The translations under genes and the position numbers were made by a program. DNA of 24,897 bases. It comes from a virus. The stretch is from UHGV virus genome UHGV-0147584; one strand, 5' to 3'. Below the pieces are notes generated by a model. It was not told the DNA's origin and searched no databases. It saw only the letters and a program-made list of their open reading frames with translations. Of the stretch, positions 5,585 to 14,385 are shown piece after piece (position 1 is the stretch's first letter; each line of letters starts with the position of its first letter).

Positions 5585-7939
5585 TTACATCTTACGGCGC
5601 TGTGCGTCTTCTACCGCCTGAGCAACTAACTTAGCATGACGTTTGATAGCATCCATAACCATCTTGTCTGAGCTATTAACGTTGCCGTTAATGTTCAAAG
5701 GCGCATTAACTTCAATCGGCTGAGAGTTACCACCGCCTGATTTTTGAGCAGATAAGAAGTCTTTCAAATCACCGTTAGTACGCTGATCAACTACTCGTTC
5801 ACCCTTATCAAGCAACCATGTACCCTCACGAGGGATATTATCGATACCATCATGAGCCATACCGCTAACGTTAGTCGATTTGATGTTTGCGATGTTCCCC
5901 ATGTTCTGAGAAACAGCCAATGCAGCAGCCGCGATTTTTTGACCTGTGGTTACGTTGGTCGGATCGTTCCATGCATCGGTAGCAGCCGTCCACATGTTCA
6001 CCGTCGCTTGTCCAATGGAGAATGCCTTATGAGCATTGAAAGCCATCTGCATAGCCTTTGTGTTTTCCTGCCCGAAGAGAGTCATTGCAGCAGCAAAACC
6101 GCCGTACATATCATCGGCTATTGACTGACGAGCATCAGCGTATTTCTTCTCAATTGCAGCCATCCGTTTTTGATGGTTTTCATTGAGTTTTTCTAATGCT
6201 TCCATCCGTTTAGCCGGAACGGTGATCCCATCAATCTTGAGTTTATCGGTTTTATAATCTTGTTCGGCTTCCGATTTCTCTTTATCGATTGCATTAAATT
6301 TAGCAAACGGATTATTTGAGTCTTGATAATCAAATCCACTGGTTAATTGATTGGATTTAAAACCATCCATTCCCTGTAAATGACTATCAATCTGAGAATA
6401 GTTTTGCTCGGTATCATTCACACGACGCATATATTCTTCGTAGGAGATAGCTTTACCATCAAGTAACCGTTTATGGCTTTCTAGCTCGTTGTCCCTGATT
6501 TGTTGCAAAACTGTTAAGGCATTCAGAGCATCAATCGGATCAGCACCCAACATCATTTTATAGATGTTTTCTGCGTTCTGATCTAACAGTTGCTGACGTT
6601 TAGCGGCTGCGTCTTGCTGAGAGATTAAGCCCATATCTAAAGCAGTGTCTAAATCTTTCAAGCTGGCTTCTAACTGCTTGTTTTGAGAAGCAATAGACGC
6701 GGCTGTCTGTCCTTGCAATTTAACATCAAGAGCATTCAGTCGCTTGATTGCATCCTCGCGTGCTTTCTGTGCTTTTTCTGCGGCTTCCTTAGCCTTTTTA
6801 GCTGCCTCTTCCGCTTTCTTCTTGGCTTCTTCTTGTTCTTTTTTCGATGGTCCGGTGACGCCTCCACCTTGACCCGTTGGGGTAAATCCGGTATCCGATT
6901 TATTTCCAGTGATAGTAATTACCGGATCACCGTTTTTATCACGGGTAACGCCTTCACTATCCACCCAACGATCAGGATAATTTGGTTTATTGTTGAAGCT
7001 GGCTTGTCCACCCGCTAGACCAGTAGAACTATAACCATGCTTGTTAATAAAACCACCGTTAGCCATAGCCATATTCTGGCGAGCTTTTTCAAACCTTTCA
7101 TTAAAAGTCTTTAATGCGTTGAATAAAGCGGTCTTTTCCCAATCTTTATCAAACCAGTTGTAAAGATTATTCATCCCTTCAACAACTGGATTTAGTGCAT
7201 TTGCAGCCATACCCTTTAAGTTATCGGTAAGGGTATCCATATTTTTAGAGAATTTATTATATTCTTCGGCTGTGTCATTGGTGATTTTAACAGTTTGCTG
7301 ATTAATGGCGTTTACAGCTTCCTGATAAGATCCGTATTTCTGCAATTCATCAGCCATATGACTTGAATCACTGGCTAACGATTCCATCATAAACTTAACA
7401 TCAGCGATAGACGCACCAGCCTTGCGCATATCATAGAAGACCTTGATCGCCGCTTTCATCCCGCCTTGTGGATCGTTCATAAACTCGGCATAATCTTTAA
7501 TCTTCAAACCTACACTTTCTAGGTCGTCTTCAATACCGCCACCGTTACGCCATGCATCAGCCAGCTTATCTAAGGTGTCTTTGTTAATATCACCAAATTT
7601 CTCAACGGTTAAGCCAGTACCGGAGAATTGCTTCTCTAATTTCTGGAGTGTTTCGACGGTTAAACCAGTTGCTTTTGAAACTTCGCTGTATTCCTTTACA
7701 TAATCACCGATGGCATTTGCAGCAGAAATAGCGCCAGCAGCCAAACCAACAAAACCACCAGCAGCCAAAGCAAGCGATCCACCAGTTCCGCGAAGGGTTC
7801 CACTTAAACTAGATAAACCACCAGACAAATCAAGATTCATTGCCCTTTCTGAAAGGTTATCAAGCATCTCTATCGCCTGATTGGTACTTCTCCTTAGACC
7901 GTCATTATCTCCTTCTATTGTTACTATATGTCTTGTCAT
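5585..7939 (-). CDS. tail tape measure protein
   Basis: 784-aa ORF directly downstream of the G/GT chaperone pair. Coiled-coil-like Ala/Lys/Glu-rich stretches (KKEQEEAKKKAEEAAKKAKEAAEKAQKARE) and Gly-rich N-terminal hydrophobic segments. Stop TAA. Confidence 0.8.
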   Translation of the reverse strand: MTRHIVTIEGDNDGLRRSTNQAIEMLDNLSERAMNLDLSGGLSSLSGTLRGTGGSLALAAGGFVGLAAGAISAANAIGDYVKEYSEVSKATGLTVETLQKLEKQFSGTGLTVEKFGDINKDTLDKLADAWRNGGGIEDDLESVGLKIKDYAEFMNDPQGGMKAAIKVFYDMRKAGASIADVKFMMESLASDSSHMADELQKYGSYQEAVNAINQQTVKITNDTAEEYNKFSKNMDTLTDNLKGMAANALNPVVEGMNNLYNWFDKDWEKTALFNALKTFNERFEKARQNMAMANGGFINKHGYSSTGLAGGQASFNNKPNYPDRWVDSEGVTRDKNGDPVITITGNKSDTGFTPTGQGGGVTGPSKKEQEEAKKKAEEAAKKAKEAAEKAQKAREDAIKRLNALDVKLQGQTAASIASQNKQLEASLKDLDTALDMGLISQQDAAAKRQQLLDQNAENIYKMMLGADPIDALNALTVLQQIRDNELESHKRLLDGKAISYEEYMRRVNDTEQNYSQIDSHLQGMDGFKSNQLTSGFDYQDSNNPFAKFNAIDKEKSEAEQDYKTDKLKIDGITVPAKRMEALEKLNENHQKRMAAIEKKYADARQSIADDMYGGFAAAMTLFGQENTKAMQMAFNAHKAFSIGQATVNMWTAATDAWNDPTNVTTGQKIAAAALAVSQNMGNIANIKSTNVSGMAHDGIDNIPREGTWLLDKGERVVDQRTNGDLKDFLSAQKSGGGNSQPIEVNAPLNINGNVNSSDKMVMDAIKRHAKLVAQAVEDAQRRKM

Positions 7940-7942
7940 AAA

Positions 7943-8317
7943 TTACCCCAATTGTCCGCTCTTGAGCTTTTGTAATAATGAAGCGTCGAAAAAACTATCA
8001 ACCAAAGCAGCGTTACGTTCTTCCTCTTTCTTACGAGCAATTTCTTTTATTTCTTCTTGCGTTTTAAATTGCTTGTCGTCCTTAATCATTCGGAATTGGT
8101 TAACATTGATTTTATTCAACCATTCACGAGTCATGTTAGGAGATGTAACGTGCATGTAATACATCGACTGTGCATGTCGCGCATCTTGAAACAGGGGGCT
8201 TTGTGGTTCAAGATATGTATCGAATATATGCAACGCCCAAAATAGCGTAATTGGCATATTATCCATCTCATCTTTACTCAAGCCCCGACGCATCATTTGC
8301 CGAAAATAAAAATTCAA
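7943..8317 (-). CDS. T-like portion of the tail assembly chaperone GT fusion (reached by -1 frameshift from G)
   Basis: This frame has no ATG start (ORF track begins at TTG) and is open upstream to 8341, overlapping the 3-prime end of the G-like ORF in the -1 frame; immediately precedes the tape measure gene. Confidence 0.6.
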   Translation of the reverse strand: MNFYFRQMMRRGLSKDEMDNMPITLFWALHIFDTYLEPQSPLFQDARHAQSMYYMHVTSPNMTREWLNKINVNQFRMIKDDKQFKTQEEIKEIARKKEEERNAALVDSFFDASLLQKLKSGQLG

Positions 8318-8325
8318 GAGCGGGT

Positions 8326-8634
8326 TTACTTTACCTCGTTTTCAATTACCGCCGCATCTTTCATCAATGATGCTTGAGCAACTAAGCCGATTAATTCGCT
8401 GCGGACGCTAGTATACAATGCCTTAACTTGTTCAATAGATTCAAATACTGGCTTACCGTCTTCATCTTCAATACAACGAAGAATAGAGCGTTCATCACGG
8501 TCTTTTTTATCGGTATTGAAAACATGTTCATTAAATTCTTGTACCGACATAGGGCGAGCATAGAACGTAAATCCGCCGAGGGTTAAAGATTCACGTTTCG
8601 GAGAAAGAGCTTTTAACATTTCATTCAGATTCAT
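8326..8634 (-). CDS. tail assembly chaperone (lambda gpG-like)
   Basis: 102-aa acidic protein directly upstream of the T-like frame and tape measure; classic G-T-TMP arrangement. Stop TAA. Confidence 0.65.
   Translation of the reverse strand: MNLNEMLKALSPKRESLTLGGFTFYARPMSVQEFNEHVFNTDKKDRDERSILRCIEDEDGKPVFESIEQVKALYTSVRSELIGLVAQASLMKDAAVIENEVK
8329..8335 (-). other. candidate -1 slippery heptamer GGUAAAG for G to GT frameshifting
   Basis: mRNA reads G GUA AAG UAA at the last two codons of G. The -1 frame (GGU AAA GUA...) is the open T frame. Lambda uses G GGA AAG at the equivalent place (recalled). Confidence 0.45.
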
Positions 8635-8676: not shown

Positions 8677-9183
8677 TTAAGAGATTTTCAAAGTCTGCTT
8701 AGTGCCAGTCTTCTTAATGTTATTGAGGAAAGCTGCCGGAGGATTGCTTAACCAATAGTAATGAAAACCACTTTGCATACTGTTATAAGGAACAGTGACA
8801 GCAGCACCACCCAAATTAACGGTTATATTCCCCGCTCTACCGTTCTGGAGATATACAGCCATAGTAGGAGTACCACCATTGAATTGACCAACGATAACGC
8901 CAATCAGACGGCCTACGCCCACGTTTTCGGGGTTCTCCATAGTTCCTTTACTGCGCATATCAGTTACAGGATAGTTTGAAGCAGTTACACCCCAATTATT
9001 ACCCAATGACGTAGACCACGCAGCAGTAGCTACAACCGTATCCATACCACGACCAGCCATTGCCGACATATTACGCGGAGCCGGAACTTTTAAAGCTGTT
9101 AATGCTTCTTTCATCCATCGCTTACCCGTCACTGATACAGCCGATGACCCGATCCAGCCGGGAACTTTAACGACATTTGCCAT
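8677..9183 (-). CDS. hypothetical virion-associated protein (Gly/Ala/Thr-rich)
   Basis: 168-aa ORF, ATG 9181-9183 preceded by GGAG; sits between a terminator and the G chaperone gene. No family recognised. Confidence 0.45.
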   Translation of the reverse strand: MANVVKVPGWIGSSAVSVTGKRWMKEALTALKVPAPRNMSAMAGRGMDTVVATAAWSTSLGNNWGVTASNYPVTDMRSKGTMENPENVGVGRLIGVIVGQFNGGTPTMAVYLQNGRAGNITVNLGGAAVTVPYNSMQSGFHYYWLSNPPAAFLNNIKKTGTKQTLKIS

Positions 9184-9357: not shown

Positions 9358-9834
9358 TCATCCGGCAGTGTTGAAGATTTCCTGTTTCAGCGGAGCACCA
9401 TCAACAGCAAAGGTAAATTCTTTAGTTACCACTTCTTCATCGCCACCGTTCATAGCAACTTTAGAAATAAAGCCGTTGAAAGCGGTGCGAATACCAGTCT
9501 GTTTTGCTGCGTCAACATAGTATTCAATTTTAATCTGAATACGGGTTCCATCTTCGGCAGCCTTAATAAGACGCTCATGCACGGTATCCCCGGGAATATA
9601 ATTAACGGTCAGAGTCAGATCAGGAACGTTCAGTTTACCTACCAGCTTGCGGTTATACTGAGAAGAGAAGGATTTAACTTCTACAGTACCGCGCTCGATA
9701 CCAGTTTCAGGGAAACCAGCACACTCTTTAATTTCTTCATAGCTTTCATGATCGAGAGCGGTGTTAGTGGTATCGGCGTGATAGAACATACTTACCAGAC
9801 CACCAGTAAAAATATCTTTGAATTGTTGAGACAT
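9358..9834 (-). CDS. putative tail tube-fold protein (candidate major tail protein)
   Basis: 158-aa ORF with SD AAGGGG. A segment (GKLNVPDLTLTVNYIPGD...LIKAAEDGT...IEY) is paralogous to the 277-aa protein at 13552-14385. Ends in TGA followed by an in-frame extension and terminator. Confidence 0.5.
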   Translation of the reverse strand: MSQQFKDIFTGGLVSMFYHADTTNTALDHESYEEIKECAGFPETGIERGTVEVKSFSSQYNRKLVGKLNVPDLTLTVNYIPGDTVHERLIKAAEDGTRIQIKIEYYVDAAKQTGIRTAFNGFISKVAMNGGDEEVVTKEFTFAVDGAPLKQEIFNTAG

Positions 9835-9890: not shown

Positions 9891-12800
9891 TTATTTAGTT
9901 GCTTTCAGTTCGGCAATCTCTTTATGTAATGCTTCGATCTGCGCTTTATATTTGGCGTCCATTTCCTGCATAGCTTTGATGATTAAAGCATTGACAGCAG
10001 AGTTAGAAATAGTCTTGATTGCTTCTGGATGTTCTGGATCTTCGGTAGATTGAATACCTACTGCTTCCGGCAATACTTTTTCCAGATCCTGAGCAATAAT
10101 ACCTACTTCGCGTTTAATTACCGTGTCATCAGAAAGAGATTTAACTTTATCGTAGGTGTATACTTTCAGGGAGTTTACTTTCTCTAATGCACCGTCCTGT
10201 AATTCTTCCTTGTTAATTTTCAGACGAGAGTCAGAGCGAATGTAAACATCGTTAAAGCTACCGTTACGACCTGCCGTCATGTCACCGGATGCGTTAAAGT
10301 CAAAGACGGCATCATGAACATGGAGACGAACAAGAGCGTTACCGATAGTACCGCTAGGAACGTGTACACCCATTGCGGCGATATGATATTTACCTTGATG
10401 GGTTGCTTTCCAGATGTTATGAGCGGAATCGGTTGATTGCTGGCAGTCGACCTGAATACCGGAAGCACGATCACGCCAGCTAGCCCAACTACCACCAGCA
10501 ACGCTACCACGAATAAGACCATTACCGCCACCGGATACAGTGCCCGTTTCAAGGTGAATCATCTTACCGCCGAATTTCCAGACTTCGGCTTGTTTCTCAC
10601 CGCGCATACGCATAACACCAGCATCATCGCAGTACAACAGACCCAACTCTAAGCCGTTTGGATCTCTAAACCATAAATGCTTGTTACCAGTGCGCTTAAA
10701 CTCAATATCAGCACCATTCAGGGTGATATTGCCTCCAGTGTGGATTGCTTTAGGCTTAACAGTACCGTTAATAGCAAACTCGATTAATTCAGTACCAGGA
10801 CCGCCAGCACGTTGGGTATACCAGTGCCAACCGCTTTCATCAGCACATTCAAACACTTGTTTACGAGCATCAGCGCCCCATGCACGAATATTAAACGTAG
10901 AAGTTGCAGTACCTTTACCCCAGCGAATTTGTCCAGCAGCTTCTAAATCACCGAAGAATTTAGTTTTAATCGCACCAGTTGCTAAAGTACGTTCAGTGGT
11001 GAAGTGTGCACCTTTGCTATCGTCAAGCTGTAAGATATTATCACGAGCGTTATTGCTATCGCCCCAATGGTTAAACCGGAAGTAGTCGCGAGAATTTAAT
11101 CGACCAGCATCAAAGGTTAACATTCCTTTACCGACGTAAATATCACCAGCAAATCGAGCAGCACGGCTATCTCGTTCGAGAACTAATGCACCCTCGTTAC
11201 CATCACCACCTAAAGTAACTTTACCAGTCGTCAAATCGTAAATGAATGGTCGGTTGCCGTTCCAGCCACCAAATTTATCATTTTCGGCAGTTGAAAGAAG
11301 ATAAACTTTACCACCATCATTACGCCAGAATGCACCGTAGTTACCGTAAATCATACGGAATGCATCACTGTTAGCAGCTACATATTGTCCGTTTGAGTAA
11401 ACAATTTTTGTTTTACCAGTGGATAATGAAACTTGACCGTTCTCATCCAGTCTTACAGAGTTATTACCTTCCGTTAATTCATTTACTAACTGTACAGTGT
11501 TAGTAGTACCATCACCATAACCTAGATAACCCTGACGACGATTAGCACCAGAACGATAATCAAAGAATTCGATATAGTTACTTTGCCCGTCGCGGCGTTC
11601 CATTCTAATAGCGTTATTACCCTTAACAAAAAGGCGGTTTACAGTAACACCATTAAAATCAATTTTTAATTGATCCGCTGTATCAGTAACACCAGTAGCT
11701 AAACGATAGACACTACCTTCAACAACTTCATGCCAAATTGTTTCGGCTGATTTGCTACGGAATTTACGAAGATATTTTTTATTTGTATCAGTTGAGTTAT
11801 TCAGACTGATAATATCATATGTTCCTTGACCGTTATTATCGAACATCAACGTTCCGGCTTTGTTTTCGGTGTTGAACATCGTAATAACACGAGCATCAGT
11901 AACACCAACAGAAGGTTTAACGAGAGTTAATTCAGGAACATCATGTACTGTTAACGAAACATCACTAGTTTTACCATATTCGACAATAACGTTATCGGTA
12001 TAACGACCGTAGTTTACGTAAATGTCGTAGTTATCACCGGAAGTATTAACCGCAAATACTTGATGGACATTCAAAGAATTTCGACGATAAGCAGCAATAC
12101 TAACGCCTTTCGGGTTATTGTTACCGGAACGGATAACAATTTCTACAAAATCAACCTGATCATAGGAGTTAACGTTATAGCCGTTACCACCGAAGATACG
12201 AAGCATTACCATTCGACCATTCTGTGGGATCGTGGCGGTTGCAATCTTGAAGTATCCACGAGAAGCATCACCAGACGGAACAGACATTTTCACGTTCTTG
12301 ATGAACATCTGGTCAACTGCGGCCTTGCTATACACACCCAATTCATCAGGAGTCGGCTTATCACCTTCATGGTACATGCGATAGCTGAATCTCTTGTTAC
12401 CGTCCTTATCAAAGCCATAGGTTTTAACCTGAGATGAGCTAGACCCATAATGGAACTCAAAGCCGCGACCGTGTGCTTTACCGCCAGAATGAGGAATGTT
12501 AAGGATTAAGTTACCCCAGCCTTCGGCATTGTTCGGACGAAACGCACCAAAATAATCAAGGTTACGAGCACCAGCATCATCAAAATAGTTAGCGGTCTTG
12601 CTTAACAGATAGCCATGATGATAAGTGTTGGTATTCTTCTTGATGTAAAGAGCATCGTTGCTACCTTCAATACCATCAATTCGACGGTTAGCGGCTGCAA
12701 TCGCTGCATCTGCATCGGTCTTGTTTTTGTCTACCTTCGCGTTAATGGCGGTATGATTGCTATTAACAGTGTTGGTTAAGTTGGTGATCTTCGTATCAGC

Positions 12801-13478
12801 GTCTTTCTTGTTATTCGCTACCGTAGTTTCAATGGCTGATTTGTTAGCCGCAACGGTACTCGTTAAGCTGGAGATCTTAGAATCAGCATCAGACTTGTTA
12901 GCTGTAACGGTTTTGGTCATATTGCTAACATTGGTGTTGGTGGCATCAACACGGCTATTGATCGCGGTGTTATTGTCATTAACCGTAGTGGTTAAAGCTG
13001 AGATTTTATTGTCCGCGTCTCGTTTGTTATTCGCTACGGTAGTTTCAATAGCTGATTTGTTTGCCGCAACAGTGTTAGTTAAAGTGGTATGTTTGCTGTC
13101 AGCGTCGGTTTTATTTGCCGTAACTGTCTGGGTTAAGTTACTAACATTGGTGTTAGTAGCATCAATGCGCTTATTGGTTGCTGTATCTTTCGTGTTAATA
13201 GTGTTATTCAGTTCAGATTTAGCGGTAGCCAGAGCGTTAGCAGCTTCGGTTTTATTTGCCGCAATAACACGATCCGTGTTGGTTTTGTTTGTGTCTACTT
13301 TAGTGTTAAGTTCAGCGTGTTTTTCTGGGGAAACGCTGATTTGAACTACTGCGTTATTTTTGTCTTTCGTGTAAATTACGTGGTCGGCAAGGTTAATAGC
13401 TACCTCACCCTGTGCCAGTTGTTCCGGCGTTGGCTTTTTACCAGCCGTCTGTGTGCGTTTAAATTGGATTGATTGCAT
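9891..13478 (-). CDS. side / L-shaped tail fibre with C-terminal intramolecular chaperone (peptidase S74-like) domain
   Basis: 1195-aa ORF. Conserved fibre N-terminus (MQSIQFKRTQTAGKKPTPEQLAQGEVAINLADHVIYTKD), tandem shaft repeats, and a C-terminal ~114 aa beginning RSDSRLK that resembles the autocleaving chaperone of phage T5 pb1 / K1F endosialidase. Stop TAA. Confidence 0.8.
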   Translation of the reverse strand: MQSIQFKRTQTAGKKPTPEQLAQGEVAINLADHVIYTKDKNNAVVQISVSPEKHAELNTKVDTNKTNTDRVIAANKTEAANALATAKSELNNTINTKDTATNKRIDATNTNVSNLTQTVTANKTDADSKHTTLTNTVAANKSAIETTVANNKRDADNKISALTTTVNDNNTAINSRVDATNTNVSNMTKTVTANKSDADSKISSLTSTVAANKSAIETTVANNKKDADTKITNLTNTVNSNHTAINAKVDKNKTDADAAIAAANRRIDGIEGSNDALYIKKNTNTYHHGYLLSKTANYFDDAGARNLDYFGAFRPNNAEGWGNLILNIPHSGGKAHGRGFEFHYGSSSSQVKTYGFDKDGNKRFSYRMYHEGDKPTPDELGVYSKAAVDQMFIKNVKMSVPSGDASRGYFKIATATIPQNGRMVMLRIFGGNGYNVNSYDQVDFVEIVIRSGNNNPKGVSIAAYRRNSLNVHQVFAVNTSGDNYDIYVNYGRYTDNVIVEYGKTSDVSLTVHDVPELTLVKPSVGVTDARVITMFNTENKAGTLMFDNNGQGTYDIISLNNSTDTNKKYLRKFRSKSAETIWHEVVEGSVYRLATGVTDTADQLKIDFNGVTVNRLFVKGNNAIRMERRDGQSNYIEFFDYRSGANRRQGYLGYGDGTTNTVQLVNELTEGNNSVRLDENGQVSLSTGKTKIVYSNGQYVAANSDAFRMIYGNYGAFWRNDGGKVYLLSTAENDKFGGWNGNRPFIYDLTTGKVTLGGDGNEGALVLERDSRAARFAGDIYVGKGMLTFDAGRLNSRDYFRFNHWGDSNNARDNILQLDDSKGAHFTTERTLATGAIKTKFFGDLEAAGQIRWGKGTATSTFNIRAWGADARKQVFECADESGWHWYTQRAGGPGTELIEFAINGTVKPKAIHTGGNITLNGADIEFKRTGNKHLWFRDPNGLELGLLYCDDAGVMRMRGEKQAEVWKFGGKMIHLETGTVSGGGNGLIRGSVAGGSWASWRDRASGIQVDCQQSTDSAHNIWKATHQGKYHIAAMGVHVPSGTIGNALVRLHVHDAVFDFNASGDMTAGRNGSFNDVYIRSDSRLKINKEELQDGALEKVNSLKVYTYDKVKSLSDDTVIKREVGIIAQDLEKVLPEAVGIQSTEDPEHPEAIKTISNSAVNALIIKAMQEMDAKYKAQIEALHKEIAELKATK
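12735..13170 (-). repeat. two tandem ~216-bp (72-aa) repeats in the fibre shaft
   Basis: Protein repeat RIDATNTNVSNLTQTVTANKTDADSKHTTLTNTVAANKSAIETTVANNKRDADNKISALTTTV versus RVDATNTNVSNMTKTVTANKSDADSKISSLTSTVAANKSAIETTVANNKKDADTKITNLTNTV; DNA copies are near-identical over long stretches. Confidence 0.8.
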
Positions 13479-13551: not shown

Positions 13552-14385
13552 TCAGTATTCCCCGAAGTCGATTCGGTCTGTCTTAGCAACCGCATTAATT
13601 TCGGCTGGCGTAGGCTTCTCATTTGTTGTATAGACTTTAATCCATTCAGATTTTCCGTTGTCCTGAATATTTCGTACCCGCAAACGTGGAGCACCGGAAG
13701 TATTACAAGTTAATTGCCATGCGCCATGCTCATTAGCTTGAAGATGAATTAACGATGTATCAGCACCATAAGGATTAGTGCTAGCCGTTCCTTTGTAGGT
13801 TACGAAGCGGTTTCCTGTCAGAGATTCACTATCAATAGGACCACTGAAAGGATTTACACCAGCGCCCAGACCAAAATCACCCTGACGTAAGATACGGCCT
13901 TCGGTAGCAATACCCCTTGCAAGAATCCCGCCATCTGGTTCTAGTTTGAATTCCATAGTTACAGCTTTGTTATCACCACCACGAGTTTTATGGCTAGTGA
14001 CATAAGCATCATAGATGACATAGTAACCAGTGTTAGCAGCACTATAGCCAGAGTTAACGACATAGAACATTCTAAAGCGTAAAGGTGTTTTATCCTCTAC
14101 GGCTTTCATCAACATTGCTTGGTGTTCATCGTCAAGAACACGGTTTACTGTGAGCGTAGTCGGTTCAAGTTTGCGATAGCCAGCCAGCTTACCAGTCGCA
14201 TCATGATCATACTCTTCGTAAGTCTCGATCTCGGTTGATTCTGTTAGCGTAGGAAAGGCTGCGATGTTCTCCATACCACTAAAGCTAGGATCGAAAAAGT
14301 CGACCTGATTGTCTAGCTGGTTAGAGATCGACACTTCAACATGCGATCCCGTAAAAATATCTAAGTTATCATGCGTAATATTCAT
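13552..14385 (-). CDS. tube-fold tail protein (candidate major tail protein, lambda gpV position)
   Basis: 277-aa ORF with SD AAGGGGTAAT. About 34% identity over an ungapped 41-residue stretch with the 158-aa protein (TLTVN..D....L.KA.ED.T......Y). Ends TGA, then 3 sense codons and TAA. Confidence 0.5.
   Translation of the reverse strand: MNITHDNLDIFTGSHVEVSISNQLDNQVDFFDPSFSGMENIAAFPTLTESTEIETYEEYDHDATGKLAGYRKLEPTTLTVNRVLDDEHQAMLMKAVEDKTPLRFRMFYVVNSGYSAANTGYYVIYDAYVTSHKTRGGDNKAVTMEFKLEPDGGILARGIATEGRILRQGDFGLGAGVNPFSGPIDSESLTGNRFVTYKGTASTNPYGADTSLIHLQANEHGAWQLTCNTSGAPRLRVRNIQDNGKSEWIKVYTTNEKPTPAEINAVAKTDRIDFGEY

What the first reader, a model, noticed from the sequence alone, without database searches (positions are those of the whole stretch)
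8318..8345. Candidate lambda-type -1 frameshift site joining the G and T tail chaperone frames
The T-like frame has no ATG and is open in the -1 frame across the last 5 codons of G. The G ORF ends with G GUA AAG UAA; a -1 slip on the A AAG lysine codon enters the T frame. Lambda uses G GGA AAG at the equivalent position. The P-site codon here (GUA) re-pairs poorly, so efficiency may be low or the site may be non-canonical.
Basis: partly seen in the sequence, partly recalled or inferred. Interest (0 to 1): 0.5.

Follow-up and report, generated by a model that had tools for sequence, protein, structure and literature searches.

The report
Tail chaperone G-T frameshift site
An E. coli prophage most likely makes its second tail-assembly chaperone by letting a few ribosomes slip back one base on A-AAG at the end of gene G; the trick is well known in phages, but here the slip site is minimal and no database annotates it.

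Summary
On the minus strand, a 102-codon tail-assembly-chaperone gene (G, 8634..8326) ends GAG GUA AAG UAA. The -1 frame opens 13 nt before that stop and runs 132 codons to 3 nt before the tape-measure gene.

- All 45 distinct G-T sequences from relatives, plus one distant phage record (30-100% G identity overall), keep T in the -1 frame.
- Each has exactly one in-frame A_AAG in the short stretch where a shift can work.
- The codon before it drifts: G_GUA_AAG, A_GUA_AAG, G_GAA_AAG and A_GAA_AAG, but also the canonical A_AAA_AAG and U_UUA_AAG.
- The TTG is CUG or UUA (synonymous Leu) in relatives. The first ATG is not conserved and has no visible Shine-Dalgarno sequence.
- T-frame coding constraint starts right at the slip site.

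No conserved downstream RNA structure or upstream Shine-Dalgarno-like element was found. In half the lineages, including this one, a stop codon follows AAG directly.

The predicted product is a 230-aa, 26.9 kDa GT fusion. Public annotation calls G "cytochrome" or hypothetical and starts T at an internal ATG.

Verdict: an ordinary lambda-type G/GT frameshift with a minimal NNA_AAG slip site, a new member of a known kind. Efficiency is unknown.

The parts
8326..8634 (-). Gene G: 102-aa tail assembly chaperone (zero frame), stop included
8329..8335 (-). Heptamer G_GUA_AAG, the proposed -1 slip site (non-canonical: GUA does not re-pair well as GGU)
   Evidence: Sequence. The same position in relatives holds G_GUA_AAG, A_GUA_AAG, G_GAA_AAG, A_GAA_AAG, A_AAA_AAG and U_UUA_AAG.
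8329..8332 (-). A_AAG core: tRNA-Lys slips from AAG to AAA. This is the only invariant element.
   Evidence: It is the only in-frame A_AAG in G. The Lys codon is AAG and the preceding base is A in 15 of 15 lineage representatives. A control conserved Lys (K13) is AAA 9: AAG 3 with mixed preceding bases.
8326..8328 (-). UAA stop of G, directly 3' of the slip codon (a possible 'shifty stop' pause)
   Evidence: The stop is adjacent in 7 of 14 lineage representatives, one codon later in 4, and 4-11 codons later in 3.
8342..8344 (-). UGA in the -1 frame: upstream limit of the 13-nt stretch in which a productive shift can occur
7943..8329 (-). T segment read after the shift (128 codons VNPLLNFYFRQMMRRGL... 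plus stop). The GT fusion is 230 aa, 26.9 kDa.
   Evidence: The T frame is conserved at the amino-acid level from the slip site. The share of synonymous codon differences is 36% before the first ATG and 42% after it, against 4-16% in the other two frames.
8315..8317 (-). TTG, nominal start of the mechanically listed T ORF; not a conserved start
   Evidence: It is CUG in the ~92% identical clade and UUA in L061, both Leu in the T frame. The nearest GAGG lies 16 nt upstream.
8291..8296 (-). ATG ATG (codons +12 and +13), the start used by gene callers for 'T'. It has no visible Shine-Dalgarno sequence and is absent in several relatives.
   Evidence: In L073, L075 and L080 the first possible start is at codon +28 to +30, inside the conserved domain.
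5585..7939 (-). Tape measure protein gene, immediately after T
   Evidence: PHROG 13674 E 9e-71
9358..9834 (-). Major tail (tube) protein gene upstream of G, with a gp38-like adhesin gene (9183..8677) in between
   Evidence: PHROG 158 E 9.5e-21, Pfam Phage_TTP_11

Best explanation
This is the programmed -1 ribosomal frameshift site of the prophage's tail-assembly-chaperone gene pair.

Most ribosomes translate G (102 aa) and terminate at UAA. A minority slip back one base while tRNA-Lys decodes AAG at ...GUA_AAG_UAA and re-pair with the overlapping AAA. They then read GUA AAC CCG... in the T frame, making a 230-aa G-T fusion (…ENEVK-VNPLLNFYFR…).

By analogy with lambda, the G part of both proteins would coat the tape-measure protein, and the rare T extension would recruit the tube protein.

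The essential cis element is the tetranucleotide A_AAG. The preceding NNA codon is free to drift. No RNA structure or internal Shine-Dalgarno sequence appears to be required. The stop codon next to the slip site may provide the pause.

- Shown: the anatomy, the conservation and the chaperone fold of G.
- Inferred: that slippage occurs, its exact kinetic mode (A-site, tandem or P-site) and its efficiency.
For: - **Gene order.** tube - (gp38-like adhesin) - G - T - tape measure; T ends 3 nt before the tape-measure ATG.
- **Frame and motif.** All 45 distinct G-T sequences from viral and genome contigs keep T in the -1 frame and have exactly one in-frame A_AAG in the permissive stretch. A natural 3-nt insertion (GGTAAAG TAG TAA) preserves the frame relation.
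- **Canonical sites at the same place.** A_AAA_AAG in L032 and L070; U_UUA_AAG in phage record PQ671644.
- **Codon choice.** The slip Lys is AAG, preceded by A, in 15 of 15 lineages. AAG is only 29% of Lys codons in these genes, and control K13 is AAA 9: AAG 3.
- **No conserved start.** TTG becomes CUG or UUA, synonymous in the T frame. ATG is absent before codon +28 in three lineages.
- **Coding signature.** In the T frame it begins at the slip site.
- **Literature.** A_AAG is the most shift-prone tetramer in E. coli (PMC4066793). NNA_AAG sites are used by IS1222 and occur in Bacillus cdd (PMC5009743). Lambda G/GT works at a 30:1 ratio (PMC5009743).
Against: - There is no experimental evidence for a GT product.
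- The heptamer is not X_XXY_YYZ. GUA to GGU leaves a mismatch at the middle position.
- In reporter assays, tetramers without a stimulator were barely above background: 0.147% against 0.112% (PMC4066793).
- No stimulator was found here. Folding z-scores were +0.5 and +0.9, the consensus fold was -0.69 kcal/mol, there was no conserved Shine-Dalgarno-like element, and there was no Rfam hit.
- No naturally fused GT homologue was found.
- The T part matches no annotated family for the window protein.
Confidence: 0.85

Rival explanations
1. T is an independent gene, started at the internal ATG ATG (8296-8291) or the TTG (8317-8315) as gene callers annotate it. No GT fusion is made.
For: Public gene calls start T homologues at internal ATGs, giving 98-118 aa proteins. 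TTG exists in the window, L063 and L066.
Against: - No visible Shine-Dalgarno sequence precedes either start.
- TTG is CUG or UUA in relatives.
- The first possible start is at codon +28 to +30, inside the conserved domain, in L073, L075 and L080.
- T-frame coding constraint and amino-acid conservation extend upstream to the slip site.
- The -1 relation and A_AAG are invariant in 45 of 45 sequences, which independent initiation would not require.
Confidence: 0.06
2. The shift is -1 and joins G to T, but it happens as P-site slippage. Peptidyl-tRNA-Lys on AAG slips to AAA while the slowly decoded UAA waits in the empty A site (a 'shifty stop'). It is not A-site or tandem slippage. The protein product is identical.
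For: UAA or UAG directly follows AAG in the window and in 7 of 14 lineage representatives. There is no other stimulator. The 'shifty stop' concept is cited in PMC5009743. The poor P-site re-pairing of GUA makes tandem slippage unattractive.
Against: Seven lineage representatives have one or more sense codons between AAG and the stop: GAA AAG AAC UAA, AAG UCC..., AAG GAA.... An adjacent stop therefore cannot be the general requirement of the family.
Confidence: 0.3
3. The shift occurs elsewhere in the 13-nt stretch, on U_GAA_AAC (tRNA-Asn slipping from AAC to AAA at 8341-8338).
For: A_AAC is in frame within the permissive stretch of the window.
Against: It is not conserved: L061 and L066 have GAA UCG there, and other clades differ. 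A_AA.C is not among the tetramers reported at least four-fold above background in E. coli (PMC4066793).
Confidence: 0.02
4. Transcriptional slippage by RNA polymerase produces a -1 mRNA, rather than ribosomal slippage.
For: Relatives L032 and L070 have a run of seven A (GAAAAAAAG).
Against: The window and most relatives have only three or four A in a row. By established knowledge that is too short for polymerase stuttering.
Confidence: 0.01

Closest known systems
Phage lambda G / G-T tail assembly chaperones (-1 frameshift at G_GGA_AAG)
   Same: - Two overlapping ORFs just upstream of the tape-measure gene.
- The downstream ORF is in the -1 frame with no start of its own.
- The slip uses the same A-site codon (A_AAG).
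- No strong RNA stimulator.
- A fusion of similar size.
- The lambda heptamer was verified, and its role and 30:1 ratio come from PMC5009743.
   Different: - No detectable sequence similarity to lambda G or T.
- The P-site codon is GUA instead of GGA, so tandem re-pairing is poor.
- The stop is adjacent to the slip codon rather than six codons downstream.
- A gp38-like adhesin gene lies between the tube gene and G.
HK97 tail assembly chaperone (PDB 2OB9)
   Different: Only 19% identity. The HK97 slip site was not examined here.
NNA_AAG 'hexanucleotide' / Z_ZZN tetranucleotide -1 sites (IS3, IS1222 G_CGA_AAG, Bacillus cdd A_CGA_AAG)
   Same: Single tRNA-Lys slippage from AAG to AAA, with a preceding codon that cannot re-pair well. 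Efficiency depends on the NNA codon (PMC5009743). A_AA.G is the best tetramer in E. coli (PMC4066793).
   Different: In the IS3 reporter system, substantial frameshifting on tetramers needed a downstream pseudoknot. None was detected here. The gene context is a phage tail chaperone rather than a transposase.
E. coli dnaX (A_AAA_AAG with upstream Shine-Dalgarno-like element and downstream stem-loop)
   Same: The same A-site slip codon. Relatives L032 and L070 carry the identical heptamer A_AAA_AAG.
   Different: No conserved Shine-Dalgarno-like element at about 10 nt upstream and no stem-loop. The efficiency is presumably far lower.

Membership tests
Tail assembly chaperone G/GT programmed -1 frameshift (lambda type) | Two overlapping ORFs between the major tail protein gene and the tape-measure gene | tested here: met
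   Order is tube 9834..9358, G 8634..8326, T frame 8341..7943, tape measure 7939..5585. A gp38-like adhesin gene sits between tube and G.
Tail assembly chaperone G/GT programmed -1 frameshift (lambda type) | Second ORF in the -1 frame, without a conserved start codon or ribosome-binding site | tested here: met
   -1 relation in 45 of 45 distinct relatives. TTG and ATG are not conserved and have no visible Shine-Dalgarno sequence.
Tail assembly chaperone G/GT programmed -1 frameshift (lambda type) | Canonical slippery heptamer X_XXY_YYZ in the overlap | tested here: not met
   The window has G_GUA_AAG. Canonical A_AAA_AAG and U_UUA_AAG occur at the same position in relatives. The A_AAG half is always present.
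Tail assembly chaperone G/GT programmed -1 frameshift (lambda type) | Upstream protein has the tail-assembly-chaperone fold or family signature | tested here: met
Tail assembly chaperone G/GT programmed -1 frameshift (lambda type) | A G-T fusion protein is made at a low, fixed ratio and is needed for tail assembly | not testable with these tools
   Needs western blot, mass spectrometry or genetics. The predicted fusion is 230 aa, 26.9 kDa.
NNA_AAG / Z_ZZN single-tRNA -1 slip sites in bacteria with one tRNA-Lys | In-frame A_AAG with the -1 frame open across it | tested here: met
   8332-8329. The -1 frame is open from 8341.
NNA_AAG / Z_ZZN single-tRNA -1 slip sites in bacteria with one tRNA-Lys | Host decodes AAA and AAG with a single tRNA-Lys (modified U34) | not tested
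   The host is E. coli: the segment matches 56 E. coli chromosomes. The single tRNA-Lys of E. coli is stated in PMC5009743.
NNA_AAG / Z_ZZN single-tRNA -1 slip sites in bacteria with one tRNA-Lys | Downstream stimulatory stem-loop or pseudoknot (as in IS3) | tested here: not met
   Fold z-scores +0.49 and +0.87. Consensus fold -0.69 kcal/mol. Per-lineage z from -1.65 to +1.65. No Rfam match.
dnaX-type frameshift cassette | Shine-Dalgarno-like element about 10 nt upstream of the heptamer | tested here: not met
   The window's GAGGU abuts the site (offset -3/-4) and is not conserved. An AAGGU about 9 nt upstream is the best anti-SD match only in L061 (also present in L063); other lineages have weak or no matches.

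The most novel reading that the evidence does not exclude
This prophage family may run its G:GT ratio on a stimulator-free 'shifty stop'. A bare NNA_AAG next to, or one codon from, the G stop codon would be the whole signal. Frameshift efficiency, and so tail assembly, would then be set by termination kinetics and by the wobble properties of the P-site tRNA (GUA, GAA, AAA or UUA), not by any RNA structure. The family's natural series of P-site variants at one homologous position would be a ready-made test set for how much P-site re-pairing matters in bacterial -1 frameshifting.
Probability: 0.25. Interest if true: 0.45.

Novelty: new member of a known kind. Interest (0 to 1): 0.28.

Why it matters
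It corrects the annotation of a prophage family widespread in E. coli, Salmonella, Proteus and Edwardsiella. G is labelled "cytochrome", T is truncated at an internal ATG, and no join is annotated.

It adds a clear case in which a tail-chaperone frameshift rests on the minimal A_AAG motif rather than a full heptamer. Heptamer-based predictors would miss such a site.

The relatives offer a natural allelic series at one homologous position: U_UUA_AAG, A_AAA_AAG, G_GAA_AAG, G_GUA_AAG, A_GUA_AAG and A_GAA_AAG, with the stop adjacent or distant. This series could be used to measure how P-site re-pairing and a neighbouring stop contribute to -1 frameshifting. None of this changes the general picture of G/GT frameshifting.

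Tried and rejected
- **Phage records by DNA.** Megablast of the G-T region against phage records found nothing. Only the gp37-like fibre gene of the window matches known phages.
- **Phage records by protein.** A tblastn search with G found a single distant record. It turned out to be informative.
- **Fused GT homologues.** The 230-aa fusion as query returned no hits at all, although G alone finds 33. I treat this as a search limitation, not as evidence. The T-only search found only separately called 75-118 aa proteins.
- **Lambda similarity.** BLASTP of G and T against lambda G and T found no similarity.
- **Downstream RNA stimulator.** I used single-sequence folds, a consensus fold, per-lineage folds with shuffles and Rfam. 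Nothing was found. By eye, a 4-bp CCCG/CGGG pairing about 35 nt apart appears in some relatives, but it changes register, lies in Gly/Arg codons and was not picked by any fold, so I rejected it.
- **Upstream Shine-Dalgarno-like stimulator.** Not conserved.
- **T domain structure.** The model has pLDDT 59, too poor for a fold search, so none was run.
- **T family search.** Only 3 of 27 members hit PHROG 337 'tail protein' weakly.
- **Local conservation plot.** The plot around the site was uninformative, because the selection pattern forced the core to be identical.
- **Primary paper.** Licznar et al. 2003 on NNA_AAG is not held. Assigning GUA to the shift-favouring codon class therefore rests on my own knowledge.

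Full report
**What is in the sequence**

All relevant genes lie on the minus strand. Read 5' to 3', the order is:
- a major tail (tube) protein gene, 9834..9358;
- a gp38-like adhesin gene, 9183..8677;
- a 102-codon ORF, here called G, 8634..8326;
- a long ORF in the -1 frame, here called T;
- the tape-measure gene, 7939..5585 (PHROG 13674, E 9e-71).

G ends AUU GAA AAC GAG GUA AAG UAA, with AAG at 8331-8329 and UAA at 8328-8326. The -1 frame has a UGA at 8344-8342. It is then open from 8341 for 132 codons to a stop at 7945-7943, 3 nt before the tape-measure ATG.

One detail is not: the T frame does contain ATG ATG at 8296-8291, twelve codons downstream of the slip site.

**Identity of the element**

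- The window has no close match among 50,697 phage records, apart from its gp37-like fibre gene.
- The G-T-tape-measure segment matches 56 complete E. coli chromosomes at 80-97% identity. This is a prophage.
- Upstream genes in the window encode terminase, portal and a major head protein.
- G hits PHROG 344 'tail assembly chaperone' (E 1.8e-7).
- G hits Pfam Phage_TAC_13 below its cut-off (22.4 against 28.8 bits). 26 of 30 family members match at E<=0.01.
- G and T show no BLASTP similarity to lambda G and T. The resemblance to lambda is one of fold, position and logic, not of sequence.

**Comparative test of the frameshift**

I collected relatives from viral contigs, species-representative genomes and one phage record. 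They span 30-100% G identity.

- *Frame and motif.* Every one of 45 distinct intact G-T sequences keeps a ~130-codon ORF in the -1 frame. Only L013 is shorter, at 96 codons. Each has exactly one in-frame A_AAG inside the short permissive stretch, between the -1-frame upstream stop and the G stop.
- *Drift of the preceding codon.* The observed sites are G_GUA_AAG (this window and its clade, L061, L063, L066), A_GUA_AAG (L069, L079), G_GAA_AAG (L033, L073-L077), A_GAA_AAG (L080) and the canonical A_AAA_AAG (L032, L070). In the most distant relative, PQ671644, the site is the canonical U_UUA_AAG.
- *Codon choice.* In 15 of 15 lineage representatives the lysine codon is AAG and the preceding base is A. 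AAG is only 29% of Lys codons in these genes, and A is 25% of third positions. A control conserved lysine (K13) is AAA 9: AAG 3 with mixed preceding bases.
- *Background rate.* In-frame A_AAG occurs at 0.34% of codon pairs in these genes. Base frequencies alone would predict 0.52%.
- *A natural indel.* A 3-nt insertion at the junction (GGTAAAG TAG TAA; L017/L050) keeps the frame relation.

**Independent initiation of T is unlikely**

- The TTG at 8317-8315 is CUG in the ~92% identical clade and UUA in L061. Both are synonymous leucine codons in the T frame.
- ATG +12/+13 has no visible Shine-Dalgarno sequence.
- In L073, L075 and L080 the first possible start is at codon +28 to +30, inside the conserved F-x-Y-R-x-[MIL]-[ML]-R-[RK]-G-L...EPQ[SG]P domain.
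- Between the slip site and the first ATG, 36% of differing codons are synonymous in the T frame, against 16% and 4% in the other two frames. Downstream in T the values are 42%, 15% and 8%.

Translation therefore passes through this stretch in the T frame. The only conserved way in is from G.

**Mechanism**

The invariant element is the tetranucleotide A_AAG.

- A review states that Z_ZZN is the minimal -1 motif. It also states that A_AAG sites work through E. coli's single tRNA-Lys, that G_CGA_AAG is used by IS1222, and that efficiency on NNA_AAG depends on the wobble flexibility of the tRNA reading the NNA codon (PMC5009743).
- In E. coli reporters A_AA.G was by far the best tetramer, up to 5.6% with the IS3 pseudoknot. 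Without a stimulator the tetramers were barely above background, 0.147% against 0.112% (PMC4066793).
- I found no stimulator here. Single folds were no better than shuffles (z +0.49 and +0.87). The consensus fold was -0.69 kcal/mol. Per-lineage z-scores scattered around zero, there was no conserved Shine-Dalgarno-like element, and there was no Rfam match.
- The one recurrent neighbour is the G stop codon. It is adjacent to AAG in the window and in half of the lineage representatives, one codon later in four, and 4-11 codons later in three.

My best reading is single-tRNA-Lys slippage on A_AAG, with or without partial P-site re-pairing. In this window it may be helped by the pause at UAA. The alternative modes (A-site, tandem or P-site) all give the same protein.

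From my own knowledge, unverified here because Licznar et al. 2003 is not held: GUA is read by a cmo5U34 tRNA-Val and would belong to the shift-favouring class. GAA to GGA can re-pair through G:U.

Efficiency cannot be predicted. It may be below lambda's ~3%, the 30:1 ratio given in PMC5009743.

**Product and annotation**

- Public databases name G homologues 'cytochrome' or hypothetical.
- They start T at internal ATGs: +12 in most calls and +25 in a RefSeq example. None annotates a join, and no fused homologue was seen.

**Verdict**

It is an ordinary lambda-type G/GT frameshift in a previously uncharacterised enterobacterial prophage family. It is notable only because the slip site is reduced to NNA_AAG and because the relatives form a natural series of P-site variants. 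I file it as a new member of a known kind, of modest interest.

Noticed in passing
window 9891-13478 (-) and 8677-9183 (-): A gp37-like distal long-tail-fibre gene, ~80% nucleotide identity to RB49/Krischvirus-type T4-like myophages, and a gp38-like adhesin gene (Pfam Gp38_N 4e-15) sit inside a siphovirus-type tail module. This looks like a horizontally acquired host-range cassette in an unusual place, with the adhesin between the tube gene and G.
   Followed up: partly
window 13552-14385 (-) and 9358-9834 (-): Two paralogous major-tail-protein-like genes (both PHROG 158; 277 aa and 158 aa) flank the gp37-like fibre gene. Which one forms the tube, and whether the fibre insertion duplicated it, is open.
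   Followed up: no
homologues of window 8326-8634 in public databases: NCBI names many G homologues 'cytochrome'. The fold and family hits say tail assembly chaperone, so this looks like a propagated misannotation.
   Followed up: yes
L017 / L050 (IMGVR_UViG_2778260996_000020), junction: A 3-nt insertion gives GGTAAAG TAG TAA. G then ends at UAG followed by UAA, T gains one Val, and the frame relation is kept.
   Followed up: yes
L013 (IMGVR_UViG_3300045988_095018): The T-frame ORF is only 96 codons, against about 130 in all other relatives. This is probably a premature stop or a sequencing error.
   Followed up: no
L029 / L065 (IMGVR_UViG_2925919700_000005) and L078: G is interrupted after residue ~79 by unrelated sequence in L029/L065. 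In L078 it is truncated at 84 codons with no T frame. These look like disrupted or decaying prophage copies.
   Followed up: partly
L083 = PQ671644.1 11277-16546 (Escherichia phage DCP80): A record filed under Straboviridae/Gaprivervirus (141 kb) carries a siphovirus-style G/T pair. It has a canonical U_UUA_AAG heptamer and a long downstream ORF, all annotated as hypothetical. The classification or the assembly of this record may deserve a check.
   Followed up: partly
window 8334-8338 (-): A strong Shine-Dalgarno-like GAGGU (-7.2 kcal/mol against the anti-SD) abuts the slip codon in the window, its close clade (L031) and L063, but not in other relatives. At such short spacing it is not expected to help a -1 shift. 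Its effect is unknown.
   Followed up: partly
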